42,338 bases of DNA from a virus, in IMG/VR virus record IMGVR_UViG_3300009360_000004. One strand, 5' to 3'. The notes under the pieces were generated by a model that was not told the origin of the DNA, ran no database searches, and saw only the letters and a list, made by a program, of their open reading frames with translations. The translations under genes were made by a program, and so were the position numbers. The first letter of the stretch is position 1, and each line of letters opens with the position of its first letter. Below are positions 3,767 through 39,950 of the stretch, in pieces.

Positions 3767-3809
3767 TTTATTAACGCAAATATCTTGAACCTCTACCGGA
3801 GGTGAATCT

Positions 3810-4715
3810 ATGAATGATTCAATGTATTTGGACTATGAGCTTTACGGCAATTCAGAAGCAAGAGATGAAATATACTATGACAATGGTTGGAAGTTGCTGA
3901 GACGCTGGCACAAAGAAACCGTTACTTTTGCCAGCAACACCGCAACGCTCTCAAAAGTCGGAAAAGGCGATTGTGAAGTCACGGGTGGTGTGGCAGGAGT
4001 CGTATCTGGCACCACCTGCACAGCAACCATCGCGGATGGAGACCATGAAGTTCTGTATATGCTTCTAATTCCTGAAACCACAGAAATTGGTGCGGGTGTT
4101 GGTTTTGCTACTGATAAAGACGGCGTAATGCTAGACCTTCATCAAGCCAAACAGGTCGATGTTTTTGTTGGTGATGGATATACAACCGAATTTACACTCA
4201 CTGAAACCCCGAATGGAACTGCAAGCATTAAGGCATTTGTAAATGGTCTTGAAGATACAGATGTAACCGTGACTACTACTAAGGTTACATTTACGACTGC
4301 CCCACGCCGCAAAGCGTTGGTTGAGGTTGAATATAGTCTTGCGGTCAAGTATCAGGAACCTTTGACGTATTTGGAATATCTCGAAGCCTCAGGAACCGTC
4401 GAAACAGTACCCGCTCTGGTAGATCTCACAGTCACAGAGAACGAAGAAAAGACAGGCTACGTCAACGTTGACGGTGCACCGCTCAAAGTCGCGGGTAACA
4501 AGACGTACACGGTCACAGTCAACAAAGATTTGATCGAGTCTCAGGACAATGTGCTGGAAGAATACAGAGACAAGAAATTCAGGCTCAAAGTTTCGAACTC
4601 AAGAGACTCAAGCAACGAATACCTCGGAGTCTGTCATATCGACCCCGACGCTTCTCTGGATTACCTGAACGGAACTGAATCAATCACGATAAAGTGTGGT
4701 GATCTCTATGATTAG
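3810..4715 (+). CDS. Putative structural (tail) protein, beta-rich, possible Ig-like C-terminal region
   Basis: 301 aa ORF, RBS cggaggtga before ATG 3810; T/V-rich segments (TVTVTTTKVTFTT, KTYTVTVNKD); no RT motifs. Confidence 0.45.
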   Translation: MNDSMYLDYELYGNSEARDEIYYDNGWKLLRRWHKETVTFASNTATLSKVGKGDCEVTGGVAGVVSGTTCTATIADGDHEVLYMLLIPETTEIGAGVGFATDKDGVMLDLHQAKQVDVFVGDGYTTEFTLTETPNGTASIKAFVNGLEDTDVTVTTTKVTFTTAPRRKALVEVEYSLAVKYQEPLTYLEYLEASGTVETVPALVDLTVTENEEKTGYVNVDGAPLKVAGNKTYTVTVNKDLIESQDNVLEEYRDKKFRLKVSNSRDSSNEYLGVCHIDPDASLDYLNGTESITIKCGDLYD

Positions 4716-5148
4716 CCTCGAATACGGCGTTGAAGTGATACAGCTCAAACCTAAAGACTACGAGAACTGGCTCTATTCTCCGAACGCTCCAACCGAGACA
4801 GACGCGGAATCAGGCGAAATCGTTGACAAGTGGGACACCGAGCAAGGTTCGACGTTTCAATACTTCTTGCTCACATGGGATGAGAACGGAGTGGCCACCC
4901 AGAGAGAAGTCTCGAAGCTCTACGACTTCCTGAAAGCGAAGCCGACCGTCGCAAACCCGATGACTCTCACATTCCCGATGTACCGGGAAGATGGTTCACA
5001 GTATCAGGGCAGGTTCTATGTGGTCTTTGCCGACACCGCGGGTGAGCAGCGTTGCCAATTTAATCAGGCTTTGCGCGCACCAGATGGCACGGCGTACTAC
5101 ACCGGAACGGTCGCATTGATCGAGATAGAAAGGAACGACGACGTGTAA
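4708..5148 (+). CDS. Hypothetical acidic protein (tail module)
   Basis: ORF 4696-5148; the ATG at 4708 overlaps the upstream stop; no recognisable motifs. Confidence 0.4.
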   Translation: MISLEYGVEVIQLKPKDYENWLYSPNAPTETDAESGEIVDKWDTEQGSTFQYFLLTWDENGVATQREVSKLYDFLKAKPTVANPMTLTFPMYREDGSQYQGRFYVVFADTAGEQRCQFNQALRAPDGTAYYTGTVALIEIERNDDV

Positions 5149-5167
5149 CACTCAGGGAGGGGATAAC

Positions 5168-6253
5168 TTGAAGGTCGCAGTTTACGCGATCGCAAAGAAC
5201 GAGGCTAAACACGTGCCTCGATGGTATGACTCCATCGCTGAAGCGGATGGAGTTTTTGTTACAGACACCGGTTCGACCGACAACACGGTTGAACTTCTCA
5301 AAGAACGTGGGGTCAATGTCTTTCATGCAGAGATCGAACCGTGGCGATTCGATGTAGCCAGAAACATCTCTCTTGAGAATGTACCTGAAGACTTCGACGT
5401 ATGTTTGTGCATTGATTTAGACGAAGTAATGGAGAAGGGCTGGAGAGAGAAGGTCGAGAGAATCTTTCGGCTTTACCCGCAGGCCACTCTCGTTCGCTGG
5501 CCGTTCGTGTTCAGCTGGTTCGATGAGAAATGCACGAAACCAAAGACTTCAATGTACCAGTGGAAGATTCACGTCAGACACGGTTATCACTGGGAGTCTC
5601 CCATTCACGAAATCTTGGTATGGCATGGGAATGGCGAGACTCTGGAAGTTTATTGCGAAGACATTCACAGCTGGCATTATCAGGATCTCTCGAAACCTAG
5701 AGAGTATCAGAAACTCATCGACAAGGCCGTCTCCGAAGATCCCACAGATCAACGTCTTTCATGGCTTCGTGCGAGAGAACTGATGATGCATAACAGATTT
5801 GAAGAGGCCATCGAAGAGGCCAAGAGGCACCTCGACCTCACCAAAGAGATCAAGGAAGGCGAGAACACGCTCGTTATTGAACAGCTCCGGGCGCTCTCAA
5901 TGCGGTATATCTCGCAGGCTCTCATGCAGAGACACAAGCAAGACAAGACAGTCGATGCGGGAGAAGTCATTGAATGGATGCTGAAGTCTGTGGCCGAGTG
6001 TCCCTGGCTCCGTGAATCGTGGGTGGCTCTCGCTCAAGCGTGGGCGCTCTTCGATCAGTGGGAACAGGTCTATGCGTGTGCGACTTTCGCGCAGACCATC
6101 AAGGCGAGAACGAATTCGATAGAAAACGACGAGCTGGCCTGGGGCGAGTACCCGGAAAAGCTCGCAAGAATAGCGTGGAAGCAGATCAGAAAAGGAGGGA
6201 AAAGATTTGAGCAACAAGCCAAAGACGGACGTTCAAAAAGCAGAAAAGTTTAA
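5168..6253 (+). CDS. Glycosyltransferase family 2-like protein with C-terminal helical (TPR-like) region
   Basis: 361 aa, TTG start after agggagggg RBS. N-terminus KVAVYAIAKNEAKHVPRWYDSIAEADGVFVTDTGSTDNTVELL plus downstream DLDEV (DxD) matches the GT-A fold pattern of GT2 enzymes. Confidence 0.6.
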   Translation: MKVAVYAIAKNEAKHVPRWYDSIAEADGVFVTDTGSTDNTVELLKERGVNVFHAEIEPWRFDVARNISLENVPEDFDVCLCIDLDEVMEKGWREKVERIFRLYPQATLVRWPFVFSWFDEKCTKPKTSMYQWKIHVRHGYHWESPIHEILVWHGNGETLEVYCEDIHSWHYQDLSKPREYQKLIDKAVSEDPTDQRLSWLRARELMMHNRFEEAIEEAKRHLDLTKEIKEGENTLVIEQLRALSMRYISQALMQRHKQDKTVDAGEVIEWMLKSVAECPWLRESWVALAQAWALFDQWEQVYACATFAQTIKARTNSIENDELAWGEYPEKLARIAWKQIRKGGKRFEQQAKDGRSKSRKV

Positions 6254-6773
6254 TCTCAAAGAGATGATGAAGGATCCCGGCAAGAAGGGATACTTCAGAT
6301 CTCACGGATACTCGGAAATCAAGGTCACGCGCATGAACGAAGAGGGCGAGATGGTCGTTGAGTATCCGAGAATTGAAATCTATCCTCTCGGGGATCACCC
6401 TGTGCTGAAACAATATCAAGATAAGTTCCCCGTTCCCGAGGCCCCAAAAACGATGCGGCTCATAAACAAGAACAACGGGAAAGAGTTCATCGACGAAGGG
6501 CTCTCGATCGAGCAGGCGAAGAACGACCCGAACTATGCCTGGGGCATGGTATATGACTACACCGACGGAGAATACCGCAAAGCAGTCGAGAAGCGAAGCA
6601 GCGATATCTCGATACTCATGATCATGATCTGTCTCGATATGGTCGAGGAGTTCGGGATCGAGAAGATAGAAGAGTTTCAGGAGGCTCTCAAAGATCTGGG
6701 CTTCACCGCAAATCAGCTCAACAAAATCGGGAGTGATATCAAGGCGCTGGATTTTTTGCCCAGCAAGAGCTAG
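6207..6773 (+). CDS. Tail assembly chaperone (gpG-like), upstream partner of a -1 frameshift pair
   Basis: 188 aa ORF immediately upstream of the tape measure gene, TTG start after aaaggaggg RBS; run of six T (6752-6757) near its 3-prime end; the -1 frame is open from 6737 to 7018. Confidence 0.55.
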   Translation: MSNKPKTDVQKAEKFNLKEMMKDPGKKGYFRSHGYSEIKVTRMNEEGEMVVEYPRIEIYPLGDHPVLKQYQDKFPVPEAPKTMRLINKNNGKEFIDEGLSIEQAKNDPNYAWGMVYDYTDGEYRKAVEKRSSDISILMIMICLDMVEEFGIEKIEEFQEALKDLGFTANQLNKIGSDIKALDFLPSKS

Positions 6774-7018
6774 AATACCGGGTACGTGACTGGTATGACT
6801 GGGACAGATTCGAGTACGAAGAGGAGTATGTCCCTGAAGCTCTGAAAGTGATGCTCTGCATACAGAAGTTTGGCCTCACGCTCGAGGAGTGGAGAGACCT
6901 GAAACGAGAGGACCAGCTGGTCTATCTCTACGGAATGACGGGAATCTCGATGCTCGAAAGGCGCGAAGCGGAGAGGGCAAAACAGGCAAGCCAGAATAGA
7001 GGGAGCGTTCTTGATTGA
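6752..7018 (+). other. Putative -1 programmed frameshift site (T TTT TTG) and gpT-like extension ORF
   Basis: Slippery heptamer at 6752-6758 in the zero frame of the chaperone; the -1 frame has no stop from 6737 to TGA 7016-7018 and no good start of its own; classic G/GT arrangement before a tape measure gene. Confidence 0.45.
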
Positions 7019-7036
7019 GCGCTCCTTTCTTTTGGA

Positions 7037-10000
7037 GTGATGACTATGGCTTTCGAAGGACTGAATTTTGATGTTGGCCTGAACTCGAGGCCGTTCACAG
7101 ACGGAATCAAGACGATGCAGACTCAGGCTGCCTCGTTTGATAATACAATCAAGAATATTGGCAGAACGCTTATGGGAGTCTTCGGGACCGTCTCTGTCGT
7201 CGCCACACTGAAGAAGTCTATCGAGTTGTGGGGCGAGCAGGAGCAAGCGATGATGAAACTCTCCATCGCCGCGCAGAGGTTCACGAGAGACGCGCAGGGT
7301 ACATACGACAGGGTCACAAAACTGTCGGGCAATCTCCAGCACCTCACGGGCATAGGGAACGAGACGTACCAATCCGTCGCGGCTCTGGGCCTCTCGCTCG
7401 GAATCACGGAGGAGAAGATCGAGAACGCCACGACCGCGGCGGCCCTCCTCTCGCAGGTGACGGGGATGGATCTGAACAGCGCCATGAAGAACCTGGCAAA
7501 GACTCAGGCGGGATTGACGGGTGAACTTGGAGAAGCTCTCCCGTTTCTCAGAGAACTGACGCAAGAACAATTGAAGAGTGGTGCAGCAATCGACCTCGTG
7601 ATTCAGAAGTATGACGGCTTTGCCGAGCAGCTTTCAGGCACAACGCAGGTGGCGATGAAGAGATTCTGGTCCGCGCTTGGAGATGTCGGGGAGGTCCTGG
7701 GCAAGTCGTTCAACCCCTTGATTCAAAAAGCCGCTGACTGGATGGAAGGCTTCAGCTCGAAGATCGAGAAACCGACCGACATTCTCAAGACACTAAAAGA
7801 CACGATCAAGGCAGGATACGAAGAACTCGGGCCGTTCGGCAAGGCTGTTGTAGGTGTAGGTGCTGCGTTCCTGACGCTCAAGGTTGCTGGCACTGCATGG
7901 AGCTTGCTCTCACAGATAGTTGTGGCTGGTGGTCATCTGATTGTAGGCGTGTTCAAGACGATATTCTCGTGGCCCACACTCTTAATTGCTGGTTTGTACA
8001 CCCTTCGTGTTGCATGGGATCACGACTGGTTCGGGATTCAGGGGACGGTTGAACACGTTTGGAAAGTGATTGAGCCTATATTTATAAAACTCAAAGACGG
8101 TCTCGTCTCAGCCTCCACATGGGCTATATCTCTGGTTTGGGAAGGCGTGAAGTGGGCTGGAGAAAAGATAGCCGTCACATACGAAACTATCAAAGACTGG
8201 GTGCTCGAAGAGCTTGCACTTGGGAAGTCCCCGCTTGAGATCGTCGTTGATGCCGCAAAGATTGCGGGCGGTGTTGTCTGGGATGGTCTTACATGGGTAG
8301 GAGAAAAAATCGCGCTAGGTACGCAAATAGTCTTTGACTGGGTAAAATCTCAATTTGGAGATGAAATAGAGGTTGTAATCAATGCAGCTAAAGTCTTCGG
8401 TGGTATGGTTTGGAAAGGGCTCAAATGGGCCGGAGAGAAAGCAATAGTTACTGCACAGATGATTTATGATTTTGCTCTTAAATATGTACCGCTTGGTATT
8501 GAGACTGTTATCAACGTTGCATCAGTGTTTGGTTCGGTGATTTGGTCCGGCTTAAAATGGATAGGTGAAAAAGCAGTTAATCTTGCGGTTCTTATCAAAG
8601 ACTTTGCAGAAAGTGAAATAGATACAGGCTTTGAACAAACAATACAGATTGCAAAAGTCTTCGGCTCTATCATATGGTCTGGTCTCAAGTGGGTTGGAGA
8701 AAAGATAGTTCTCGGTATCAAAGTGATAGAAGGTTGGGTGAGAGATCAACTTGATCTCCCAGAAACCGCAACGCTCCCTGAAATCTTCCTTGATATGGTC
8801 AGAGTAGTTGGCACGGCAGCGTGGGATGGCTTGAAATGGGTAGGCCAGAAGGTTGCTATTGGTGCCAAAGAAGTCTATGATTGGGCTTCCGAAGGGCTAG
8901 AAACAGGCTTTGAACTCACAATCGAAGTTGCTAAACTGTTTGGCGGGGTAGCCTGGCAAGGGTTGGTAAAACTCGGTGAATGGTCATATGATGTTGCTGT
9001 GTGGGCTAAGGACAATGTCCTCCCTGCTGTGATTGAGACTACGGTTGAAGTTGGAAAGGTAATCGGTGGCGTTAGCTGGCTAGGTCTCAAATGGGTAGGT
9101 TCACAGATTGCGATAGGTTTTGACACTCTCAGAAACTGGGTCTATTCGGAGCTTGGCCTTGACAAGTATGGAGCGACATCAAATATCCTGATCGAAGTTG
9201 CCAAAGTCTTCGGAGGTCTAGGCTGGCTCGGTTTGAAATGGACCGGAGAAACGATAATTCTCGGATACGAAGCGCTCAAGAAGTGGACTGAAGAGCAGCT
9301 AGGCACCACACCGGTTGACATCATTCTCAATGTTGCGAAAGTAACAGGCACGGCAATCTGGGAAGGTGTGAAGTGGATAGACGACAAACTCCCAAAGATT
9401 GATCTCGGTGCTGACGATGAACAGAAAGTAGATCAGGGCATCGTGGATGTAGTTGTGAGTGCGATAGCTAACATTGCATCGTGGCAGTGGAGGGGCTTTG
9501 TCTGGCTCACTGAGAAGGCTTCATTCGGGCTCGACTGGCTCGCAGATCAGATCCGACCGAAAATAAATGTTGAAGTAAACGGAGACGATAACTCGGGTTT
9601 TGATATTGGAGATATAGGAGTATTCGCAAAGGGAGTCGCGAAGGTATTCTCAATGAAGTGGGAAGCCGTCAAGTGGCTCTGGACGAAAGTCACACAGAGC
9701 ACTTTCATTGAGGACCTGAAAAACAGAATAAAGAAATCATCGGGCATAGATGATGAGGTCGAAGTCACCTGGAAAGACTTGTTAGTCCGGGGCTTCGGCT
9801 CTATTGGCTCTGCCGCGTGGGATGGTCTTACATGGTTTGCGGAAGGTCCGGTACATACATTTGCCGACTGGGTACGAAAGCAGATCGGTATGAGCGAAGC
9901 CGGAGAGATGAAAGTAAACCTCGGGGATGACATTAAAGTGATCCTCTCGGGTGCAGTCTCTGGTGCGACTTGGCTAGTTGATTGGGTCAAACAAGGGATA

Positions 10001-12346
10001 GGGGCCGCAACCGAATGGCTTCAAGATGTAGGAGCAGTCCTTCGTAGGGCTGTGGAAGGCGTAGAAATGAGCGCAGAGGATATAAAACTCTATGAAACCA
10101 CGGCTTCGTTTGGCGTAAAATTGGGTGAGTTCATAGGTGCTGGAATCAAAGCGGGCCTCAATCTTCTTGACATAATTCAGAGTGCGCTTGCTGGAGTAAT
10201 TGCAGAAATGACAGGCTCAAAAGAAGTTGGCCAAGTTGCTGGGACTGCAATTCCTTTGTTTTTCACTGCAAAGTGGCTCATGACTCCAATTGCTACACTT
10301 ACCCCATTTCTTGTTGCTGCAATGGGTTTCGCGGGATTGAAGCCTCTCACTTTCGGGACGTTCGGTGTGATGGTTGCGTTAAAAGTTGCGCAGGATCTTT
10401 CAACAGGCGAGGCCGAGTGGCAGGACATAGGGGCAAGGTTCGTTGCCGCCCTTGCCGTGGGTATGGGGATAGGAGCGTTTCTCGGCAGTCCGAGCGCGGG
10501 GGTGCTGACATTCGAGCTTCTCATGCTCGTCAAAGTTGAAAAGTTTGTTGACAGCATAGGAAATGTTGTGAAAGATCTTGTGGACGCTGTCCTGTTCCCT
10601 GAATTCGTCGATCTTCCTGTATCTGAGAAGATGGAGAAGACTATCGGCGCACTTGAAAAGCTCGATCAGACTCTTGACAGACCCGCAGACAATCTTGCAA
10701 CGTGGCTCATCACTGTGGATGAAGCACTCGGAAATTTTTACAATACATTCCCGACGAAAGTCGAACTCAATCAGATGGGCGAACTTGAACAGAGCTACTA
10801 TATGGCCGTGCTCGAATATGCTCATGCCCTTGAGGCGTCATCAAATGCGATACTCGATGCAGCAGATGATCTTGCAGCAACGGCTCAAATGATCGAGAAC
10901 ATGAGACAGATAGTTGTGCCGATACCTGGGAAAGCAGAAGGCGGTTACATCTCAGGCCCGGGCGGTCCTAAAGAGGATAGAATACCCGCCCTACTCTCGA
11001 ACGGTGAGTTCGTAGTCAATGCGAAGTCAACCGAAAAGTGGCTACCGTTCTTGAAAGCAATCAATGCTCAAGGCTTTGCAGACGGTGGAATAGCTCGGTT
11101 TGCCACAGGCACGGCAACGAAGATAGACGTTGGCAGTATTGGTGGTGGTCCGCTCACATGGTGGGATACAATTCTAAACACCCTTATGAGTGTGGTCGGA
11201 GACTATGCCGAGACCGCAAAGAAAGACTTCGGGATGATTAAGAACGTACTCGGAGACTTGCTCAGAACAATAGGTCTTGACATCGACGCGCCGCTAGACA
11301 ATCTGAACAAACTGCAAAGTGAGCTTGACGGTCTGACTCTTTCTACGAGCGATACAGGTGATACAGTAGAAGACTTCATGACCGCCATGTTCAGGGGATA
11401 TCGCAAAATCAATCAAATCTCTGAGGTTCTCAGTGAAGGCAAGATAGAGAACGTCAATAGACAGCTTGCGTTCCTTGATACTGCGATGAACGATCTTGAA
11501 AAACAGTTCATGGAAGGAACCATCCAGCTCGGAGAGTACACGGAAAGAATGACATATCTCAAGAATTTGACAGACAGTTTCTCTGACTCTCTCGGAGACC
11601 TCAAGAAGAAGATTGAACGCAGCTCGATAGTCGGTGACTCATCCGAGATATTCAAGGTTGACGAGAACACCGGCGAGCTGGTCTCTGTATTTGCAAAACT
11701 GAGGCCGGGCATGGAAGGACTCACAGATGTTGTGGGCAATTTAGCCACAGCGGGTGAAATGTTTGCCATGAGTCTGTTGAATCAGGTCGTGAACCTCGAA
11801 GCTATCAACATGCTCCTGAATCCGATCTCAACGATTCTCACAGGTGTGATGGAGATACTAGGTCCGATCATCAACCTCTTGAAACCTCTCGGCGACGCGC
11901 TGGTCAGCATAGGCAGAGTCTTCGCCCTGACGTTCAATCTCTTCGGTCAGGGCCTCCTGGTTCTCCAACCGTTCTTCAAGGCTCTAGGCTGGCTCGGTGC
12001 TACGATCTCGTATATCGCGGACCAGATAGTCCTGTTCGTCGATGGAATTTTCACCTGGTTAAGCACTCTGCCGTTCATAGGTGGTCTGTTCAGTCCTCTC
12101 CTAACAGAGGATCAGAGGCAGAGCATGAAGCGCACCATCCCGGAGAGGATGGAAGATATCGAGCTTCCACAGTCCACGACAGGGCAGGTCTTCCAGGCAG
12201 GGAGTTCCCAGCACATCACGAACAACTACCACTTCGAGTTCAGGGGAAACGACATTCTCACAGAAGACGACGAAAGCGCCCGACGGTTCGCAGATCTCAT
12301 CTACAAGAACCTTCGCGATCGCGGCGTTCAGTTGCAGGTAGGGTGA
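7037..12346 (+). CDS. Tail tape measure protein
   Basis: 1769 aa ORF (ATG at 7040 or 7046 more likely than GTG 7037); largest gene, after the chaperone pair; N-terminal coiled coil, hydrophobic central segments, at least ten tandem ~45 aa repeats carrying W-x-G-L-K-W-x-G-E-K. Confidence 0.85.
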   Translation: MMTMAFEGLNFDVGLNSRPFTDGIKTMQTQAASFDNTIKNIGRTLMGVFGTVSVVATLKKSIELWGEQEQAMMKLSIAAQRFTRDAQGTYDRVTKLSGNLQHLTGIGNETYQSVAALGLSLGITEEKIENATTAAALLSQVTGMDLNSAMKNLAKTQAGLTGELGEALPFLRELTQEQLKSGAAIDLVIQKYDGFAEQLSGTTQVAMKRFWSALGDVGEVLGKSFNPLIQKAADWMEGFSSKIEKPTDILKTLKDTIKAGYEELGPFGKAVVGVGAAFLTLKVAGTAWSLLSQIVVAGGHLIVGVFKTIFSWPTLLIAGLYTLRVAWDHDWFGIQGTVEHVWKVIEPIFIKLKDGLVSASTWAISLVWEGVKWAGEKIAVTYETIKDWVLEELALGKSPLEIVVDAAKIAGGVVWDGLTWVGEKIALGTQIVFDWVKSQFGDEIEVVINAAKVFGGMVWKGLKWAGEKAIVTAQMIYDFALKYVPLGIETVINVASVFGSVIWSGLKWIGEKAVNLAVLIKDFAESEIDTGFEQTIQIAKVFGSIIWSGLKWVGEKIVLGIKVIEGWVRDQLDLPETATLPEIFLDMVRVVGTAAWDGLKWVGQKVAIGAKEVYDWASEGLETGFELTIEVAKLFGGVAWQGLVKLGEWSYDVAVWAKDNVLPAVIETTVEVGKVIGGVSWLGLKWVGSQIAIGFDTLRNWVYSELGLDKYGATSNILIEVAKVFGGLGWLGLKWTGETIILGYEALKKWTEEQLGTTPVDIILNVAKVTGTAIWEGVKWIDDKLPKIDLGADDEQKVDQGIVDVVVSAIANIASWQWRGFVWLTEKASFGLDWLADQIRPKINVEVNGDDNSGFDIGDIGVFAKGVAKVFSMKWEAVKWLWTKVTQSTFIEDLKNRIKKSSGIDDEVEVTWKDLLVRGFGSIGSAAWDGLTWFAEGPVHTFADWVRKQIGMSEAGEMKVNLGDDIKVILSGAVSGATWLVDWVKQGIGAATEWLQDVGAVLRRAVEGVEMSAEDIKLYETTASFGVKLGEFIGAGIKAGLNLLDIIQSALAGVIAEMTGSKEVGQVAGTAIPLFFTAKWLMTPIATLTPFLVAAMGFAGLKPLTFGTFGVMVALKVAQDLSTGEAEWQDIGARFVAALAVGMGIGAFLGSPSAGVLTFELLMLVKVEKFVDSIGNVVKDLVDAVLFPEFVDLPVSEKMEKTIGALEKLDQTLDRPADNLATWLITVDEALGNFYNTFPTKVELNQMGELEQSYYMAVLEYAHALEASSNAILDAADDLAATAQMIENMRQIVVPIPGKAEGGYISGPGGPKEDRIPALLSNGEFVVNAKSTEKWLPFLKAINAQGFADGGIARFATGTATKIDVGSIGGGPLTWWDTILNTLMSVVGDYAETAKKDFGMIKNVLGDLLRTIGLDIDAPLDNLNKLQSELDGLTLSTSDTGDTVEDFMTAMFRGYRKINQISEVLSEGKIENVNRQLAFLDTAMNDLEKQFMEGTIQLGEYTERMTYLKNLTDSFSDSLGDLKKKIERSSIVGDSSEIFKVDENTGELVSVFAKLRPGMEGLTDVVGNLATAGEMFAMSLLNQVVNLEAINMLLNPISTILTGVMEILGPIINLLKPLGDALVSIGRVFALTFNLFGQGLLVLQPFFKALGWLGATISYIADQIVLFVDGIFTWLSTLPFIGGLFSPLLTEDQRQSMKRTIPERMEDIELPQSTTGQVFQAGSSQHITNNYHFEFRGNDILTEDDESARRFADLIYKNLRDRGVQLQVG

Positions 12347-12350
12347 TAGT

Positions 12351-12698
12351 ATGACAGTTGACATAGGATCTCTCAGTTTCACGGTGTACCCGAAGAAATA
12401 CAAGCACCCATACAGAACCAGAGTGATCGAGCCGGTGGAGGTCATAAACATTGCGCCCGACGGTTCGGCATATCACTATTGTGACGGCACGGTGAAGAGA
12501 TACAAAATACCTCTCTTCTTCACCGAGTCGGACAGAACCACGCTGGAATCATACAGGCAGACCGCGGCGACTTTGAAGATAGACTCGGAGTCTGCCGTGA
12601 ATGTGAAACTGATCGGGAACTACGAGTACAAAGAAAAGTGGATCAAAGGCGTGGCAATGTACGAAGAAACGCTTGAGTTCCTGGAGGTGGCCACATGA
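12351..12698 (+). CDS. Hypothetical tail protein (distal tail protein position)
   Basis: 115 aa ORF directly after the tape measure gene, overlapping the next gene by 4 nt. Confidence 0.4.
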   Translation: MTVDIGSLSFTVYPKKYKHPYRTRVIEPVEVINIAPDGSAYHYCDGTVKRYKIPLFFTESDRTTLESYRQTAATLKIDSESAVNVKLIGNYEYKEKWIKGVAMYEETLEFLEVAT

Positions 12699-17886: not shown

Positions 17887-17955
17887 AGTTTTTTCGTAGT
17901 TCTGCTCATAACTTTCCTAGCAGCTCAAGTTTCAACAATGGAGGTTGATACTCCA

Positions 17956-18420
17956 ATGGGCATAAAACTCGACTTCATCGAGAAGTACCGCAGCGACGCT
18001 ATTCTCGTCGGGCTGGCCTGTGACTTTCCTCCGATCATTCTTCTCGTGCAGGCCGCGCTCGAGACAGGCTGGGGGAGGCATATGGTCGGGAACAATCTGT
18101 TCGGTATCAAGGACGTTCCCTGGATTCCCGGGAGTGTGGAAAAAGAAACGACTGAATTTGATACTGTATGGAAAACTGAGACACACAGCTTTGAAACGTT
18201 CGACTCTCCTATCCAGTGCATGGTTGCGTATGTAGTAAAAATACGTACAGAACCAAGATATAGTACAGCCTGGAAATTCAGACATGAACCCACAACGTAC
18301 TTCGAAGAACTCCAGAAAGCAGGCTATGCCACAGATCCAGACTACGCTAAAAAACTTGTACGCATTTTTGATACATTCCCCGAATGGGAGGTGGATGATG
18401 CCAGCACCCAAAACGATTAA
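17956..18420 (+). CDS. Endolysin, glucosaminidase (N-acetylglucosaminidase-like) domain
   Basis: ATG 17956 preceded by ggaggt RBS (track ORF starts at 17938); motif VQAALETGWGRHMVGNNLFGIK typical of the glucosaminidase/FlgJ-type lysozyme family. Confidence 0.65.
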   Translation: MGIKLDFIEKYRSDAILVGLACDFPPIILLVQAALETGWGRHMVGNNLFGIKDVPWIPGSVEKETTEFDTVWKTETHSFETFDSPIQCMVAYVVKIRTEPRYSTAWKFRHEPTTYFEELQKAGYATDPDYAKKLVRIFDTFPEWEVDDASTQND

Positions 18421-30266: not shown

Positions 30267-31166
30267 ATGAGAATCGGTCTGATTGATGTTGATTCGAAGA
30301 TCCCTAACCTCGCCCTGATGAAGCTCTCGGCATGGCACAAAGCGAAAGGAGATAAGGTCGGGTTTTTCAATGCGCTTCAGAGATACGATCGTGTCTATGC
30401 CTCGAAAATCTTCGGCTTCACGGATGACTTCAAATACTGGCCTGGCTGCGAGATCGTAAAAGGCGGCAGCGGATATGACCTTGAGGCAAAACTCCCAGAA
30501 GAGATAGAGCATACTTACCCCGACTATGGGCTTTACGGTTGTGATTATGCTATGGGCTTCATCACTAGAGGTTGCATCCGAAACTGTCCTTTCTGCATTG
30601 TGCCGAGAAAAGAAGGCACGATACGCAAATCTGCTGATTTAGAAGAGTTCTGGAATGGGCAAAAGAGATTGATGCTTCTCGATAACAACATAACAGCAGC
30701 TCCAAAAGTGTTTGAAGAGACTATAAACAAAATTGTCGATTTGAAGATCAAAGTTGATTTTAGTCAAGGGTTGGACGCAAGACTCGTTGATGACAAAAAG
30801 TCGCTGCTGCTGTCGAAAGTCAGGTTGTGGAAGCAGATTCGTCTAGCTTGGGACAACGTAAAGGATGAGAGAGAAGTACTTCTAGGTTTGGAGATCCTTC
30901 TCAAATACAATTCCCCGAAACGCCTGATGATCTACGTCCTCATAGGCTTCGATTCCACGCCCGAGGAAGATCTCTATCGAGTAGAAAGGCTTCGAGAGAT
31001 GAAACTCGACTCTTTCGCTATGCCTTTCGACAGAAGAGATCCATACCAGAGGAACTTTGCGAGGTGGGTCAATCATAAGGCGATATTCAAGAGTGTTTCG
31101 TGGAATGAATACACTGCCAATAGAAAGAAGAGGAAAAGAAATCCGAGACAACTGGAGGTGAACTGA
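30267..31166 (+). CDS. Radical SAM protein with B12-binding-like N-terminal segment
   Basis: 299 aa, RBS gaggaggg; canonical C-x3-C-x2-C (CIRNCPFC) in GFITRGCIRNCPFCIV; N-terminus MRIGLIDVD...NLALMKLSAWHKAKGDKV resembles a Rossmann-like B12-binding segment. Confidence 0.65.
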   Translation: MRIGLIDVDSKIPNLALMKLSAWHKAKGDKVGFFNALQRYDRVYASKIFGFTDDFKYWPGCEIVKGGSGYDLEAKLPEEIEHTYPDYGLYGCDYAMGFITRGCIRNCPFCIVPRKEGTIRKSADLEEFWNGQKRLMLLDNNITAAPKVFEETINKIVDLKIKVDFSQGLDARLVDDKKSLLLSKVRLWKQIRLAWDNVKDEREVLLGLEILLKYNSPKRLMIYVLIGFDSTPEEDLYRVERLREMKLDSFAMPFDRRDPYQRNFARWVNHKAIFKSVSWNEYTANRKKRKRNPRQLEVN

Positions 31167-34580: not shown

Positions 34581-34652
34581 AGGCACGTAGCGCAATGGCA
34601 GCGCATCCGTCTCATAAACGGAAGGGTAGCGGTTCGAATCCGTTCGTGCCAC
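34581..34652 (+). tRNA. tRNA with CAU anticodon (tRNA-Met or lysidine-modified tRNA-Ile2 type)
   Basis: Hand-folded cloverleaf: 6 bp acceptor stem plus A1-A72 mismatch, D arm gcgc/aatggca/gcgc, anticodon arm tccgt-ctCATaa-acgga, variable loop agggt, T arm agcgg-ttcgaat-ccgtt. Confidence 0.6.
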
Positions 34653-34821: not shown

Positions 34822-34998
34822 TTGAGTCAGGCCATACAATGCGACGAATGTGGAAAGACTGCACATATGACCCATCACTGGCACAAGCTCGACGGGCTGG
34901 ACTTCTGCTCGTGGAAGTGTGTGCGAAGGTTTGCGAATCGAAGGATCAAACAGGATCGGGAGTATCAGAGAGAGAAAGAAGGGATTGAATGCAGATAG
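34822..34998 (+). CDS. Small zinc-binding protein
   Basis: 58 aa from TTG 34822, 5 nt after tggaggt RBS; CDECGK ... CSWKC. Confidence 0.4.
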   Translation: MSQAIQCDECGKTAHMTHHWHKLDGLDFCSWKCVRRFANRRIKQDREYQREKEGIECR

Positions 34999-36155
34999 AA
35001 AAGAAGAAAGTCTCCGACTTAAAGTGTGCTCCATACAACCCGCGAAAGATTGACGACAAAGAGCTTGCAAAACTAAAACGAAGCATCACCGAGTTTGGTT
35101 ATGTAGAACCTATTGTCTGGAATAAACGCTCGGGCTTCGTTGTGGGAGGTAATCAGAGACTCAAGGCATTACGTGAGCTTGAAATAGAGGAAGCCGATGT
35201 CGTGGTTGTTGACCTTGACGACGCAAAGGAGAAAGCTCTCAATGTCGCCTTGAATAAAATCTCTGGCGAGTGGGACTTCATCAAGCTAAAGGACGTATTG
35301 ACTGACATTGACACAGGAGACTTTGACATAGAGCTGACTGGGTTTGATTTGGATGAGATAGGAGAATTGATAGCTTTCGACAAAGAACCTGAAGAAGATG
35401 GTTTCGACGTAGACGCTGCATTAGAAAACACAGAAGAACCCGTGACAAAACGCGGTGACATTTACCTGCTTGGAAAACATCGCCTGATGTGCGGGGACTC
35501 AACTATCAAAGAAGATGTCGAGAAGCTGATGGATGGTAAGAAAGCGGATATGGTGTTCACTGACCCGCCTTATGGGGTGAATTACGATGGCGGCACTAAA
35601 CTACGAAACAAATTAGCGGGCGATGATACCACCGATTTGTACGAGCCTTGCTGCAAAATGGCACGCGATTTCTCGACGAACGAAGCGGCTTTGTATCTTT
35701 GGCACGCAGGGGTGAAAGGGATAGCAGCCGCAGCCGCAGCCGCAGATTGGGTCATTCGTTGTGAGATAGTTTGGAATAAAAACCATGCACAATTCGGCGC
35801 GTTGTCGGCACAGTACAAACAAAAGCACGAGCCTTGTTATTATTGCTACAAAAAAGGAAAGACGGTAAATTGGTGTGGGCCGAAAAACGAAGTAACGGTG
35901 TGGGACGTTGACAGAGCGTTGGTGAATGAATACCATCCCACACAGAAGCCGGTGGAGTTGGCAAAACGCGCTATTCAAAACCACAAAGCGGATTTGGTAC
36001 TCGACTTATTCGGCGGCTCAGGCTCAACACTCATAGCTTGTGAACAGCTCAACCGCATCTGCTACATGATAGAAATTGACGAGCGATACTGCGATGTAAT
36101 CGTAAAGCGTTGGGAAGAATTCACAGGCAAGAAAGCTCAATTGATGAGGAAGTGA
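34989..36155 (+). CDS. ParB-like nuclease domain fused to DNA N6-adenine/N4-cytosine methyltransferase
   Basis: 388 aa; C-terminal motif IV FTDPPYG precedes motif I LDLFGGSGST; N-terminal ~120 aa is ParB/Srx-like. Confidence 0.7.
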   Translation: MQIEKKKVSDLKCAPYNPRKIDDKELAKLKRSITEFGYVEPIVWNKRSGFVVGGNQRLKALRELEIEEADVVVVDLDDAKEKALNVALNKISGEWDFIKLKDVLTDIDTGDFDIELTGFDLDEIGELIAFDKEPEEDGFDVDAALENTEEPVTKRGDIYLLGKHRLMCGDSTIKEDVEKLMDGKKADMVFTDPPYGVNYDGGTKLRNKLAGDDTTDLYEPCCKMARDFSTNEAALYLWHAGVKGIAAAAAAADWVIRCEIVWNKNHAQFGALSAQYKQKHEPCYYCYKKGKTVNWCGPKNEVTVWDVDRALVNEYHPTQKPVELAKRAIQNHKADLVLDLFGGSGSTLIACEQLNRICYMIEIDERYCDVIVKRWEEFTGKKAQLMRK

Positions 36156-36159
36156 TTTT

Positions 36160-36486
36160 ATGGCTGGCAGACCGAAAAAGAAAATAGACTATGAGCTTGT
36201 CGAGAAGCTGGCCTATATTCAGTGTACACAAGAAGAAATCAGCTCGATTCTTGGCATATCGACAAGGACTCTTCAGAGAGACAAAGAATTTTGTCGCATA
36301 TATAAAAACGGAATGGACAACGGGAAGATGTCTCTAAGGCGGTTACAGTGGAAGGCCGCAGAAAAAGGCAATAACACAATGCTAGTTTGGCTCGGTAAAC
36401 AGTACCTCGGCCAGACAGACAAGCAAGAGATGGCTCACTCTGGCAGCCTCGACATCACTGTGGACGTGGTTGAAGATGGCGATTAA
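36160..36486 (+). CDS. terS: Terminase small subunit
   Basis: 108 aa; MAGRPKKKIDYELVEKLAYIQCTQEEISSILGISTRTLQRD is a typical HTH-type small terminase N-terminus; directly upstream of the large subunit. Confidence 0.65.
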   Translation: MAGRPKKKIDYELVEKLAYIQCTQEEISSILGISTRTLQRDKEFCRIYKNGMDNGKMSLRRLQWKAAEKGNNTMLVWLGKQYLGQTDKQEMAHSGSLDITVDVVEDGD

Positions 36487-37684
36487 AATTCACACCCGCA
36501 TATTCAACAAGGCTTTCAAACCGTATCTCGACAACCGCTCGCGCTACGAGATCTTCTACGGTGGCGCAGGTTCGGGCAAGTCGATGTTTATCGCCCAGAG
36601 ACTCGTCCTTCGTGCAATGAAGGAGAAAGGTCACAAGTTTCTCATAGTCAGGAAGGTCGCAAAGACGAACCGGCATTCGACGTTCGCGCTTATCATGGGG
36701 ATTCTCAGGGTATGGAAGGTTCTCGGACTTTTCAAAGTCAACAAGTCCGACATGGAGATCGGCTGTCTGAATGGCAATCAAGTCATCTTCACCGGTCTTG
36801 ACGACGTGGAAAAGCTCAAGTCGATCGCGGGTATCACGGACATCTGGGTCGAAGAAGCGAGCGAGATCACGCAGGAAGACTTCCAGCAGCTTGACTTGCG
36901 ACTCAGGGGCAAGACTCAATGGCCGCTGCAAATCACAATGACATTCAATCCGGTGTCGGCTTTGAGCTGGTTGAAGGCTTTCTTCTTCGATGAACCGAAA
37001 GAGAACTGTGTCATCCACAAATCGACGTACAAAGACAATCGTTTCCTGGACGACGAATATAAGAAAGTCATAGAAGACTTGAAAAATCAGGATCACACGT
37101 ACTATCAGATATACGGACTCGGTGAATGGGGTGTTCTCGGAAACCTCGTCTTCCACAACTACGTGTTCGAAGACATTCCCTACAAAGAGCAAGACTTTGA
37201 CGCTGTTTATCAGGGCCTCGACTTTGGCTTCAATCATCCCTCGGCTCTCGTTCGTGTGGGATTCAAAGACGATGAACTCTACGTCTTCGACGAGCTGTAC
37301 GAGAAAGGGCTCACGAACGCGGAACTCATTCAGGAAGTCGGCAGGATGATCGACAAGCGTTCGCAGCTCATAGCGGACTCAGCCGAACCCGCGAGAATCA
37401 AAGAGTTTCAGCAGTCTGGTTTCAGAATCAGCGGTTCGGTCAAGGGCAAAGGTTCTGTGAAAGATGGTATCGACTGGCTCAAGAGACACAAGATCCACAT
37501 CTCGAAGAAGTGCCCAAACCTGCTTGCTGAGATTCAGCAATACAGCTACAAAGAAGACAAAGACGGCAATGTCTTGGATGAACCGATCGAATTCAAAGAC
37601 GACGCGATCGCGGCACTTAGATATGCGATCGAACCTGTGAGACTGAGACGCAAAATCACAGCCGGATACTCGGCGTGGAGGTAA
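36476..37684 (+). CDS. terL: Terminase large subunit (PBSX/Terminase_3-like)
   Basis: ATG 36476 (track ORF starts TTG 36470); Walker A YGGAGSGKS; acidic C-terminal nuclease-type region; followed by portal gene. Confidence 0.8.
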   Translation: MAIKIHTRIFNKAFKPYLDNRSRYEIFYGGAGSGKSMFIAQRLVLRAMKEKGHKFLIVRKVAKTNRHSTFALIMGILRVWKVLGLFKVNKSDMEIGCLNGNQVIFTGLDDVEKLKSIAGITDIWVEEASEITQEDFQQLDLRLRGKTQWPLQITMTFNPVSALSWLKAFFFDEPKENCVIHKSTYKDNRFLDDEYKKVIEDLKNQDHTYYQIYGLGEWGVLGNLVFHNYVFEDIPYKEQDFDAVYQGLDFGFNHPSALVRVGFKDDELYVFDELYEKGLTNAELIQEVGRMIDKRSQLIADSAEPARIKEFQQSGFRISGSVKGKGSVKDGIDWLKRHKIHISKKCPNLLAEIQQYSYKEDKDGNVLDEPIEFKDDAIAALRYAIEPVRLRRKITAGYSAWR

Positions 37685-37687
37685 ATC

Positions 37688-39046
37688 ATGGACCTTAACA
37701 CAATTCGCGAACTCATACGAATCAACGGTGAAGTAACTTCACAGATAATCACGGATCTCATAGATGAACACAGCGGCAGACATGAGACGATGAAGAGCCT
37801 GTATGAGAGATACAAAGCGTCCGAGGCCGGTGTCCCTATCTTCACGCGCTCATATTCGGTCGCGGACGACACGAAGATAAACAGAAAGCTGAACAACGAC
37901 TTCTTCTCGGAGATCATCGACACGAAGGTCGGGTACTTCATGGGGATCCCGACAGTGTACGAAGCGAACTCGAAAGACTTCGAGGACTTCGAGTTGAGAA
38001 ACCGGCTGGAACTTCTCGACTCGGAAACCGTGAAGCTGGCCACGATCTGTGGCACGGCCGCGAGACTTCTGTATGTCGATACCGAGGCGAAGATCCGCGC
38101 TATGAACACCTGGCCCTGGGAATGCATCTGGGTGATGGACCGCTCGATCGACGAGGTCCAGTTCGCTCTCAGATACTACGATATGGAGTATGTCAAACCT
38201 GACGGCTCGACAGAAACAAGGGAACGGGTCGAGTGGTATGACAAAGAGAAGGTAACATACTACACCAAGACCGAGAATGGCTACGTCCTGGACGACACGG
38301 AAAAACTTAATCCGCAGACTCACTTCTTCAGTTATGTTCCTCTGATCGAGTACCCAAACAACCTTGAACGTCTGGGTGACTCTGAGAAGGTTCTCAGTCT
38401 CATAGACGCTTACGACCGTAAAGAGTCAGACCTCGACTCCGAGCTTGAGCAATGGAGGCTGGCGTACATGAAGGCGATAGGTGCCGACATCACGAGGGAA
38501 GTTGTGGAGGTTGCGAAGCGCACGGGGGCTTTCAATCTCCCCGAAGGCGCGGATCTTGCCTTTATCGAGAAAAATATAAATGTTGCTGCGATAGACTCAC
38601 ATCTGAACAGACTTGAAGCCAACATTCTCAGATTCTCCAAGTCTGTCAACTTCGCCGACAAAGAATTCACCAGCGACATCTCGGGCGAGTCGAGAAAGTA
38701 CAAGCTCCTGTCGCTTGAGAACAAGTGCATCACGACAGAGCGACAGTTCTCGGCGAGCAATCAGAGAATGTTCAAGGTCCTGGCCTCGGCTCCGGCGTTC
38801 AACTTCGACTGGCTGAATGTCACGCAGAGGTTCACTCGAAACCTTCCCGTCAGTCTGGAGAAAGACGCTCAGATCCTCGCCGCGCTCAAGGGCATCGTGC
38901 CGGATGAGATTCTATACTCCCTCGCTTCGTTCATCGACGATCCGAAAGAGGTCATCAAAATGATGGACGAGCAGAGAGAGAAAGAAATGAGCTACTACCC
39001 GCCGGTAAACCTCGAAGAGGATGAGGAAGATGGCGCTAACAACTAA
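37688..39046 (+). CDS. Portal protein (SPP1 gp6-like)
   Basis: 452 aa, RBS ggaggt; size and position between terminase and head-morphogenesis genes. Confidence 0.7.
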   Translation: MDLNTIRELIRINGEVTSQIITDLIDEHSGRHETMKSLYERYKASEAGVPIFTRSYSVADDTKINRKLNNDFFSEIIDTKVGYFMGIPTVYEANSKDFEDFELRNRLELLDSETVKLATICGTAARLLYVDTEAKIRAMNTWPWECIWVMDRSIDEVQFALRYYDMEYVKPDGSTETRERVEWYDKEKVTYYTKTENGYVLDDTEKLNPQTHFFSYVPLIEYPNNLERLGDSEKVLSLIDAYDRKESDLDSELEQWRLAYMKAIGADITREVVEVAKRTGAFNLPEGADLAFIEKNINVAAIDSHLNRLEANILRFSKSVNFADKEFTSDISGESRKYKLLSLENKCITTERQFSASNQRMFKVLASAPAFNFDWLNVTQRFTRNLPVSLEKDAQILAALKGIVPDEILYSLASFIDDPKEVIKMMDEQREKEMSYYPPVNLEEDEEDGANN

Positions 39047-39950
39047 GGGCGCTTTCGACGACTTCGAGCGATGGTACGACGGCTTCACGAAGCGGCAGTT
39101 GAAGGAACTGGAGAAAGCCTACCGCGAGTCGCTCAAGGTCACAAAAGAGGAACTCGAGAAATACTACAAGACTTTCTCGAGAGGTGGCAAACTCACACTG
39201 GCCGAGATGCAGAAGTACGACCGGCTTCGAAAGATGCAGAAAGATCTCGACGCCGCGATTCTCGATCTCTCGCGTACCCAGGCGAAAGAGGTCCTGACTC
39301 TTCTATCTGAGGTTTATTTTGAAGGCTACAACCGCATGGGCTGGCTTGCAGAACAGGCGACAGGAATCAACCTCAGATGGTACGTACTGCCGAAAGACTT
39401 CATCAAGAAAGCGATTCAAAATCCGGTGTCTGGCCTGACCCTGAACGAAGTCCTCGAAAAGAACAGACAGGAGATCCTCTGGCGCATCCGCCAGGAAGTC
39501 ACGCAAGGTTTGATAAAAGGTGAGAGCTACTTCGACACGGCCAAACGGCTCAAGGAAGCGCTCGAAGGGAACTATGCGAAAGCCCAGAGAATAGTCTGGA
39601 CCGAGAGTCACAGGTGTAAGGAACAGGCGCAACTCGAAGCACACCAGAGGTTGAAAGAAAAAGGAGTCGATGTCAAGAGGATGTGGGTGGCCACCCTTGA
39701 TAATAAGACTCGCGACACCCACGGCGAACTTGATGGTCAGATAGATGACAAAGATGGATACTTTCACGTTCGGGGCATGACAACCAAAGCTCCTGGAATG
39801 TTTGGCATAGCGAGCGAGGATTGTAATTGCAGATGCGCTGCAATAGAGATCTTCGAGGGCAGCGAACCTCGCACGAGAATGATTCAGGGTAAGGGGATAA
39901 GCGATTACATAACATACAGTGAATGGAAGAGACAGCAAAAGGAGGGATAG
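39030..39950 (+). CDS. Head morphogenesis protein (SPP1 gp7 / Mu F-like minor capsid protein)
   Basis: ATG 39030 (or 39021); C-terminal RMWVATLDNKTRDTHGELDGQ...NCRC matches the Phage_Mu_F signature. Confidence 0.75.
   Translation: MALTTKGAFDDFERWYDGFTKRQLKELEKAYRESLKVTKEELEKYYKTFSRGGKLTLAEMQKYDRLRKMQKDLDAAILDLSRTQAKEVLTLLSEVYFEGYNRMGWLAEQATGINLRWYVLPKDFIKKAIQNPVSGLTLNEVLEKNRQEILWRIRQEVTQGLIKGESYFDTAKRLKEALEGNYAKAQRIVWTESHRCKEQAQLEAHQRLKEKGVDVKRMWVATLDNKTRDTHGELDGQIDDKDGYFHVRGMTTKAPGMFGIASEDCNCRCAAIEIFEGSEPRTRMIQGKGISDYITYSEWKRQQKEG

What the first reader, a model, noticed from the sequence alone, without database searches (positions are those of the whole stretch)
6737..7018. Probable -1 programmed ribosomal frameshift joining the tail chaperone to a downstream ORF
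The chaperone gene 6207-6773 contains T TTT TTG (6752-6758) 13 nt before its stop. The -1 frame is open from 6737 to 7018 with no plausible start or RBS of its own and ends 19 nt before the tape measure gene, the conserved G/GT layout of tailed phages. The predicted fusion is about 270 aa. UUUUUUG is not one of the best-characterised slippery heptamers, so the exact slip site is uncertain.
Basis: partly seen in the sequence, partly recalled or inferred. Interest (0 to 1): 0.45.

Follow-up and report, generated by a model that had tools for sequence, protein, structure and literature searches.

The report
Phage tail chaperone G/GT frameshift
This is an ordinary but well-supported case of the "slip back one base" trick by which tailed phages make a short and a long tail-assembly chaperone from one gene, here in a chaperone family that the Pfam and PHROGs domain libraries do not hold.

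Summary
ORF 6207-6773 (188 aa) ends 12 nt after an in-phase T_TTT_TTG (6752-6758). The -1 frame is open 6737-7018 and stops 18 nt before the tape measure gene.

Seventeen related loci (14 distinct sequences, G identity down to about 38%) all keep GAT TTT TT[G/A/T] and a 75-86-codon -1 extension that ends at the tape measure start. In three lineages a -1-frame stop abuts the T-run, which pins the shift to the heptamer.

The extension is under purifying selection only in the -1 frame (dN/dS 0.06-0.09), including the 18-32 codons that precede any ATG/GTG/TTG. More distant family members use other in-phase sites (A_AAA_AAC, A_AAT_TTT, T_TTT_TTC).

No downstream RNA structure is conserved across the family. 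A junction specific to the window clade is only weakly supported.

Verdict: a new member of the known G/GT class. Ribosomal -1 slippage is inferred, not shown. Interest is low.

The parts
3810..4715 (+). Probable major tail protein (301 aa). It is the upstream anchor of the tail protein / G-T / tape measure gene order.
   Evidence: Its homologues lie directly upstream of the G homologue in distant relatives (L012, L013, L016, L026, L001, L020). The only family hit is a weak PHROG 'virion structural protein' match. The function is inferred from position.
6192..6199 (+). Shine-Dalgarno-like AAGGAGGG, seven nt upstream of the TTG start of G.
   Evidence: Read directly from the sequence. Homologues begin at the same N-terminus, MSNKPK.
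6207..6773 (+). Gene G: the tail assembly chaperone candidate, 188 aa, the product of standard decoding.
6737..6773 (+). Overlap of the zero frame and the open -1 frame. A -1 shift must occur inside these 37 nt.
   Evidence: TGA at 6734-6736 closes the -1 frame upstream, and TAG at 6771-6773 closes the G frame. T_TTT_TTG is the only in-phase X_XXY_YYZ heptamer found in this overlap.
6752..6758 (+). Slippery heptamer T_TTT_TTG (P-site Phe UUU, A-site Leu UUG), the proposed -1 shift site.
   Evidence: In phase. GAT TTT TT[G/A/T] is invariant in all 17 sequences although neighbouring third codon positions vary. P = 0.021 given this genome's codon usage, and about 9e-6 multiplied over six lineages treated as independent (window and L003 are close relatives, so this is a rough figure). 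A -1-frame stop abuts the T-run in L013/L014 and L021.
6758..7018 (+). T extension: 86 codons plus TGA, read in the -1 frame only after the shift. The fusion GT (6207-6758 joined to 6758-7018) is 270 aa.
   Evidence: dN/dS is 0.06-0.09 in this frame. Codons 6-30, upstream of any start codon, give pN/pS 0.03-0.08 in the -1 frame against at least 0.77 in the other frames where the ratio could be computed. There is no ATG/GTG/TTG for 18-32 codons in any locus. The ORF ends within 18 nt of the tape measure start, or overlaps it, in every locus where that start lies within the fetched DNA.
6766..6843 (+). Possible three-way RNA junction, specific to the window clade, starting 7 nt after the heptamer. 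Weak evidence.
   Evidence: MFE is -28.3 kcal/mol with z -3.07 against shuffles. 92% of cells are paired and three pairs carry compensatory changes across the window clade plus L011. However, 8% of native 90-nt windows of this genome fold at least as well, the family-wide consensus is only -2 kcal/mol, and the closing helix never covaries.
7037..12346 (+). Tape measure protein gene. It may start at ATG 7046. It is the downstream anchor of the module.
   Evidence: Matches to several tape measure PHROGs, best E 1e-18. It carries 11 protein repeats of about 44 aa with the motif W-x-G-L-K-W-x-G.

Best explanation
ORF 6207-6773 and the -1 ORF that follows it form the G/GT tail-assembly-chaperone pair of a tailed bacteriophage.

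Most ribosomes translate G to its TAG stop and release a 188 aa protein. A minority slip back one nucleotide on U_UUU_UUG: tRNA-Phe moves from UUU to UUU and tRNA-Leu from UUG to UUU. They then read 86 more codons in the -1 frame and make a 270 aa GT fusion that ends just before the tape measure gene.

By analogy with phage lambda, the G part of both products coats the tape measure protein. The T part of the rare fusion recruits the major tail protein, so the shift efficiency sets the G:GT ratio needed for tail assembly.

Shown here: the sequence anatomy; family-wide conservation of the shift site and the -1 ORF; protein-coding selection on T in the -1 frame, including the stretch that has no start codon; the gene order; and a chaperone-like fold for G.

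Inferred: that the slip is ribosomal, that it is a minority event, and what G and T bind.
For: 1. Anatomy confirmed.

2. All 16 close and mid-distance relatives, plus L020, L021 and L023, keep an in-phase T_TTT_TTN and a -1 ORF. Its extension is 81-89 codons where the whole ORF could be measured and, where the tape measure start lies within the fetched DNA, it ends at that start.

3. In L013/L014 and L021 a -1-frame stop lies directly before the T-run, so entry into T is possible only at the heptamer or within the 10-25 nt after it.

4. T is under purifying selection in the -1 frame only, with dN/dS 0.06-0.09. This includes codons 6-30, which precede the first ATG/GTG/TTG.

5. There is synonymous constraint on GAT TTT TTR. 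P is 0.021 in this genome, where TTR makes up only 12% of Leu codons. Multiplied over six lineages it is about 9e-6.

6. More distant family members reach a homologous T ORF through other in-phase heptamers that lack a long homopolymer: A_AAA_AAC in L018, A_AAT_TTT in L026, and A_AAT_TTT or T_TTT_TTC in L024. L025 has only a U_UUA tetramer followed by a stop. This pattern is typical of ribosomal slippage.

7. G is the gene before the tape measure protein and after the probable major tail protein. Its best PDB fold match among 48,164 chains is the HK97 tail assembly chaperone.

8. Published knowledge of G/GT supplies the model (PMC5009743).
Against: - No product has been observed.
- U_UUU_UUG is not among the efficient heptamers in E. 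coli assays. There U_UU.U_UU.C and U_UU.U_UU.U are efficient, and the G-ending form is efficient only in the eukaryotic assay (PMC4066793).
- No stimulatory RNA structure or SD-like element is conserved across the family. A GGAGG lies 16 nt upstream of the heptamer in some lineages but is absent from the window's closest relatives (sequences).
- A T6 run could in principle also support transcriptional slippage.
Confidence: 0.85

Rival explanations
1. Transcriptional slippage. RNA polymerase occasionally adds one extra U on the run of six U residues in the transcript. A subset of mRNAs then encodes G and T in one continuous frame, and the ribosome never shifts.
For: The site is a homopolymer: T6 here, and T7 in L015/L016. 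One added base gives exactly the -1 frame. Sequence alone cannot separate the two mechanisms. UUUUUUU is under-represented in E. coli genes in all frames, possibly because it causes transcriptional indels (PMC4066793).
Against: From my own knowledge of the field, productive transcriptional slippage in bacteria generally needs runs of about eight or more. Homologous genes reach the same T ORF from sites with no long homopolymer: A_AAT_TTT in L026, and ACT TTA TAA in L025. In lambda the G/GT event was described as a translational frameshift (PMC5009743).
Confidence: 0.07
2. T is an independent gene, initiated from an internal or non-canonical start such as GTG 6848 or ATG 6851. It is not fused to G.
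For: GTG 6848 opens a 56 aa ORF. In distant relatives with a different frame arrangement (L022 and the Oceanotoga phage), T has its own ATG.
Against: No ATG/GTG/TTG occurs in the first 18-32 T codons in any of the 17 loci, and the first starts lack SD-like sequences. Those start-less codons are the best conserved part of T (EYRVRDWYDWDRF) and show pN/pS 0.03-0.08 in the -1 frame. In L013/L014 the frame opens exactly at the T-run.
Confidence: 0.03
3. Artefact. A homopolymer sequencing or assembly error split one continuous ORF of about 270 aa, or the -1 ORF is a decaying remnant.
For: Homopolymer runs are error-prone, and the window is probably a metagenomic contig.
Against: Fourteen distinct sequences from independent assemblies keep the same frame relationship. 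They keep a G-frame stop 9-15 nt after the heptamer, with T6 and T7 variants both in the -1 configuration. Gene callers found the 178-209 aa form in all 12 homologue clusters. T is under strong purifying selection.
Confidence: 0.02

Closest known systems
Phage lambda gpG / gpGT, and the conserved G/GT frameshift of long-tailed dsDNA phages (Levin et al. 1993 and Xu et al. 2004, as reviewed in PMC5009743)
   Same: Two overlapping ORFs lie between the major tail protein gene and the tape measure gene. The second ORF is in the -1 frame and has no start of its own. An in-phase X_XXY_YYZ heptamer sits a few codons before the G stop. The arrangement is conserved although the sequences diverge.
   Different: The heptamer is T_TTT_TTG; from my own memory, lambda uses G_GGA_AAG. 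There is no detectable sequence similarity to known chaperone families. G is longer (188 aa) and has an extra beta-rich N-terminal part. In this clade a glycosyltransferase gene and a 150 aa ORF are inserted between the tail protein gene and G. Efficiency and binding partners are untested.
HK97 tail assembly chaperone (PDB 2OB9) and B. subtilis YqbN (PDB 3KLU; XkdN-like, from my own memory)
HIV-1 gag-pol type U_UUU_UUA and other U6N -1 sites (PMC3458567; PMC4066793)
   Same: The same U6 tandem-slippage core. Relatives of the window use the U_UUU_UUA, U_UUU_UUU and U_UUU_UUC forms.
   Different: Those eukaryotic and viral sites depend on a downstream hairpin or pseudoknot 5-9 nt away. No such conserved element is found here.
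Oceanotoga phage vB_OteS-UFV02 hypothetical proteins WNO30047 / WNO30046 (OR420712.1)
   Same: This is the only deposited phage record with a detectable G homologue (25% identity, E 3e-9). A T-sized ORF and a large downstream gene follow in the same order. Its T aligns weakly with the T profile.
   Different: Its T ORF is in the +1 frame and begins with an ATG directly after GGAG. There is no in-phase heptamer. Expression may therefore not use -1 slippage at all.

Membership tests
G/GT tail assembly chaperone pair with programmed -1 frameshift (lambda-like, Xu et al. 2004 class) | Two overlapping ORFs located between the major tail protein gene and the tape measure gene | tested here: met
   The tape measure gene is identified by PHROGs. 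The p301 homologue abuts G in distant relatives. The ORF layout is confirmed. In the window itself two extra genes (4696-5148 and 5168-6253) are inserted upstream of G.
G/GT tail assembly chaperone pair with programmed -1 frameshift (lambda-like, Xu et al. 2004 class) | The downstream ORF is in the -1 frame and lacks its own start codon and RBS | tested here: met
   There is no ATG/GTG/TTG for 30 codons in the window, and for 18-32 codons in all 17 loci. No SD-like sequence precedes the first start.
G/GT tail assembly chaperone pair with programmed -1 frameshift (lambda-like, Xu et al. 2004 class) | An in-phase slippery sequence (X_XXY_YYZ) lies inside the overlap | tested here: met
   T_TTT_TTG at 6752-6758. 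It is conserved as T_TTT_TTN in the 17 sequences first compared and in L020, L021 and L023. Other in-phase heptamers occur in more distant members.
G/GT tail assembly chaperone pair with programmed -1 frameshift (lambda-like, Xu et al. 2004 class) | The extension is a real coding sequence conserved among relatives | tested here: met
   dN/dS is 0.06-0.09 in the -1 frame. Variable codon positions number 34/17/65 for positions 1/2/3. The frame-specific test agrees.
G/GT tail assembly chaperone pair with programmed -1 frameshift (lambda-like, Xu et al. 2004 class) | Both G and GT are made, in a fixed ratio with G in excess, and both are needed for tail assembly | not testable with these tools
   This needs proteomics, reporters or genetics.
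G/GT tail assembly chaperone pair with programmed -1 frameshift (lambda-like, Xu et al. 2004 class) | G binds the tape measure protein and the T domain binds the major tail protein | not testable with these tools
   Inferred only by analogy (PMC5009743).
Recognised tail assembly chaperone sequence families (Pfam Phage_TAC families, PHROG chaperone families) | A significant profile match of G or T | tested here: not met
   No hit for G, T or 31 family members in PHROGs, and only chance-level hits in Pfam. No PDB relative by sequence.
Tail assembly chaperone fold (HK97 chaperone 2OB9, YqbN 3KLU) | Structural similarity of G to a solved chaperone | tested here: inconclusive
Stimulated -1 PRF cassettes (dnaX / IS3 type: heptamer plus downstream hairpin or pseudoknot, with or without an upstream SD) | A conserved stable structure 5-9 nt downstream of the heptamer, or an SD-like element 10-14 nt upstream | tested here: inconclusive
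   In the window clade a junction starts 7 nt downstream and has three compensatory pairs. It is not unusual against the native background (8%) and is absent family-wide. The SD-like GGAGG lies 16 nt upstream, in some lineages only.
Transcriptional slippage sites | A homopolymer run long enough for productive RNA polymerase slippage (about eight or more, from my own knowledge) | tested here: not met
   The run is T6 in the window and T7 at most in relatives. Some homologues have no homopolymer at all.

The most novel reading that the evidence does not exclude
This chaperone family matches no Pfam or PHROG model (45 clusters at 50% identity). Its recoding signal has been replaced repeatedly: T_TTT_TTG/A/T/C, A_AAA_AAC, A_AAT_TTT, and a bare U_UUA tetramer followed by a stop. 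In one clade (L022 and the Oceanotoga phage) T has moved to the +1 frame with an ATG immediately after GGAG(G). If that clade expresses T separately, or by +1 or -2 shifting, the family would be a natural series showing how G/GT recoding is gained, exchanged and lost. Conservation of U_UUU_UUG, a poor shifter in E. coli, might also point to host-specific tRNA-Leu properties.
Probability: 0.25. Interest if true: 0.4.

Novelty: new member of a known kind. Interest (0 to 1): 0.2.

Why it matters
The practical value is annotation. The 270 aa GT fusion is missing from all 12 homologue clusters found in the protein database, because gene callers cannot see it. The G family carries no functional label in Pfam or PHROGs. 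Adding the join, and labelling the roughly 45-cluster family as tail assembly chaperones, would improve annotation of a group of uncultured phages found in several metagenomes, probably phages of Bacillota-like bacteria. Biologically it is one more confirmation that G/GT recoding is nearly universal in long-tailed phages. It is not a new mechanism.

Tried and rejected
- Nucleotide search of 3800-12400 against 50,697 phage records found no match.
- A protein search of those records with the fusion found only one distant hit, in the Oceanotoga phage.
- Pfam and PHROG scans of G, T and 31 family members gave nothing usable.
- A profile search against PDB sequences gave chance-level hits only.
- Foldseek against BFVD gave one marginal hit (Bacillus phage Staley, E 6e-3). 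From its length, that protein is probably not the gene next to the largest gene in the Staley tail region, so I did not use it.
- The afdb50 fold library was unavailable.
- A family-wide RNA structure downstream of the heptamer was rejected. The RNAalifold consensus is -2 kcal/mol, and MFEs are unremarkable against native windows in 11 lineages.
- An upstream SD-like stimulator was rejected as a conserved feature, because it is missing in the window's closest relatives.
- Locus searches with divergent alignments or single distant proteins in IMG/VR failed. Contigs for distant members came from exact-sequence look-ups instead.
- An archaeal host was suggested by the MAG labels of two relatives. 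I rejected it as unlikely: the window encodes a PF01832 glucosaminidase, a likely endolysin, and its portal is 42% identical to Bacillus and Staphylococcus phage portals.
- DNA-level tandem repeats in the tape measure gene: none.

Full report
**The observation**

- ORF 6207-6773 starts at TTG, seven nt after AAGGAGGG (6192-6199). It encodes 188 aa and stops at TAG 6771-6773.
- The run TTTTTTG occupies 6752-6758 and is in phase as GA[T TTT TTG]. Twelve nt separate it from the stop.
- The -1 frame is closed by TGA at 6734-6736, open from 6737 and closed again by TGA at 7016-7018.
- The next gene, 7037-12346, matches several tape measure PHROGs (best E 1e-18). It more probably starts at ATG 7046, given the GGAG at 7034-7037.
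- Reading through Leu184 and then stepping back one base gives a 270 aa fusion.

**Is it more than chance?**

On the window alone the case is only suggestive.

- A -1 frame open for 86 or more codons occurs at 9.5% of coding positions in this genome. Several ordinary neighbouring genes also follow their predecessor in the -1 frame.
- In-phase X_XXY_YYZ heptamers are rarer: 21 in 9399 codons, so about 0.03 are expected in the 12-codon overlap.
- The codon choice is unusual for this genome. TTA and TTG make up only 12% of Leu codons and TTT 34% of Phe codons. Given the amino acids, P(GAT TTT TTG) is 0.021.

**Comparative evidence**

A protein search found 12 homologue clusters of G at 46-94% identity. 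All hold the short 178-209 aa form and none includes the extension. Pattern scans fetched 15 IMG/VR loci and one MAG contig.

- All 17 sequences (14 distinct) keep GAT TTT TT[G/A/T], although the third codon positions around it vary freely.
- In all of them the -1 frame stays open for 75-86 codons beyond the G stop. It ends within 18 nt of, or overlaps, the start of the long downstream ORF.
- In L013/L014 a -1-frame TGA lies immediately before the T-run. L021 shows the same.
- Multiplying the codon-usage probabilities over six lineages gives about 9e-6. Synonymous sites are saturated between most of them, although window and L003 are close relatives, so the figure is rough.

**Is T translated, and from where?**

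- Nei-Gojobori comparisons of the extension give dN/dS of 0.06-0.09 between the window and L003, L004, L010 and L017. Variable sites fall mainly at the third codon position of the -1 frame (34/17/65 for positions 1/2/3).
- No locus has an ATG, GTG or TTG in the first 18-32 codons of T, and the first such codons lack SD-like sequences.
- Codons 6-30 after the slip lie downstream of the G stop and upstream of the first possible start. They show pN/pS of 0.03-0.08 in the -1 frame, against 0.77-1.6 or only non-synonymous changes in the other two frames.

This stretch, EYRVRDWYDWDRF, is therefore translated in the -1 frame, and it can only be reached from G.

**The wider family**

A profile search of 1.84 billion representative proteins found 45 clusters. 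Contigs for distant members show the same gene order with different recoding sites, all in phase:

| Locus | Site | Frame of T |
|---|---|---|
| L018 | A_AAA_AAC | -1 |
| L020, L021, L023 | T_TTT_TTG or T_TTT_TTA | -1 |
| L024 | A_AAT_TTT and T_TTT_TTC | -1 |
| L026 | A_AAT_TTT | -1 |
| L025 | ACT TTA TAA (10-nt overlap: a U_UUA tetramer next to the stop) | -1 |
| L022, Oceanotoga phage vB_OteS-UFV02 (L001) | ATG right after GGAG(G); no in-phase heptamer | +1 |

Conserved recoding with changing signals is the hallmark of the G/GT class reviewed in PMC5009743. Homologues reach T from sites without a long homopolymer. That makes ribosomal slippage more parsimonious than transcriptional slippage, although sequence alone cannot exclude the latter for a T6 run.

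**Is G a tail assembly chaperone?**

- By sequence it belongs to no known family. G, T and 31 family members have no Pfam or PHROG hit, and no PDB relative is found by profile.
- By position the label fits. The 301 aa protein at 3810-4715 has homologues that abut G directly in distant relatives, giving the classical order of tail protein, G/T, tape measure. The 150 aa ORF appears in only some other lineages, and the GT2 glycosyltransferase gene only in the window clade plus L011.

**Stimulatory elements**

- The 90 nt after the heptamer fold into a three-way junction whose closing helix starts 7 nt downstream (-28.3 kcal/mol, z -3.07).
- Across the window clade plus L011, 92% of cells pair and three pairs carry compensatory changes.
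- The structure was derived from the window itself, and its closing helix never covaries.
- About 8% of native 90-nt windows of this genome fold at least as well.
- Nothing is conserved family-wide (consensus -2 kcal/mol), and MFEs are unremarkable in the other lineages.
- A GGAGG lies 16 nt upstream of the heptamer in L013, L016 and L020, but not in the window's closest relatives.

I treat stimulators as unproven. That is compatible with a low-efficiency shift of the lambda type. In E. coli assays U_UU.U_UU.C and U_UU.U_UU.U are efficient. U_UU.U_UU.G is listed as efficient only in the eukaryotic system (PMC4066793).

**Context and host**

The window looks like a complete tailed-phage genome. 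It encodes the following:

- terminase (36470-37684)
- portal (37688-39046)
- minor head protein (39021-39950)
- scaffold (40043-40657)
- major head protein (40673-41515)
- helicases, a primase and a methyltransferase
- the tail module described above

The portal is 42% identical to Bacillus and Staphylococcus siphophage portals. ORF 17938-18420 carries a PF01832 glucosaminidase domain and is a likely endolysin. The host is therefore probably a bacterium. The Asgard and Methanomethylovorans MAG labels of two relatives are probably binning artefacts.

**Verdict**

It is a new member of a well-known kind: the G/GT -1 programmed frameshift. It sits in a chaperone family that has no label in Pfam or PHROGs.

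Still inferred rather than shown: that the slip is ribosomal, that it is a minority event, and that G and T bind the tape measure and tail proteins respectively.

Interest is low (0.2). The mildly novel aspect is the turnover of shift sites in this family, including a clade with T in the +1 frame.

Noticed in passing
window 5168-6253: A GT2 glycosyltransferase gene (phrog_13126 beta-1,4-glycosyltransferase, E 3e-80; PF00535) sits inside the tail module and overlaps the start of G by 47 nt. It is present at this position only in the window clade and L011. More distant relatives have the tail protein gene directly next to G. It may glycosylate virion proteins, but this was not examined.
   Followed up: partly
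window 7037-12346 (protein residues 368-825): The tape measure protein carries 11 consecutive repeats of about 44 aa with the motif W-x-G-L-K-W-x-G. The repeats are too diverged to show at the DNA level. The gene more likely starts at ATG 7046 than at GTG 7037, because GGAG lies at 7034-7037.
   Followed up: partly
L022 2201-2512; L001 (Oceanotoga phage OR420712.1) 6548-6856: In these distant G homologues the T-like ORF is in the +1 frame. It begins with an ATG only 0-2 nt after GGAG(G), 8-14 nt before the G stop, and there is no in-phase slippery heptamer. The Oceanotoga T aligns weakly with the T profile (hhalign E 6e-4). Whether T is made separately, by +1 or -2 shifting, or by coupling is unexplained.
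   Followed up: partly
L025 2552-2561: The G/T overlap is only 10 nt (GAC ACT TTA TAA). The -1 shift there would have to use a U_UUA tetramer next to the stop codon rather than a heptamer.
   Followed up: no
L020 (GCA_052584985.1, Candidatus Asgardarchaeia MAG) and L017 (Methanomethylovorans MAG JAHFZE010000110.1): Close relatives of this phage tail module are filed in archaeal MAGs. The window, however, encodes a PF01832 glucosaminidase (17938-18420) and a portal like those of Bacillota phages. These contigs are probably mis-binned phage DNA.
   Followed up: partly
window 34581-34652: A single tRNA-Met gene (anticodon CAT) lies between the replication and methyltransferase genes.
   Followed up: no
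window 34989-36155 and 30267-31166: A ParB-like domain fused to a DNA methyltransferase (phrog_498, E 8e-141) and a radical SAM protein (phrog_9298, E 5e-95) are encoded in the non-structural half of the genome.
   Followed up: no
window 6729-6733; the equivalent position in L013, L016 and L020: An SD-like GGGAG or GGAGG lies 16-18 nt upstream of the slippery heptamer in several lineages (codons for G-S-D or A-E-D). It is missing in L003-L010. The spacing is longer than the 10-14 nt that I recall as optimal for -1 stimulation.
   Followed up: partly
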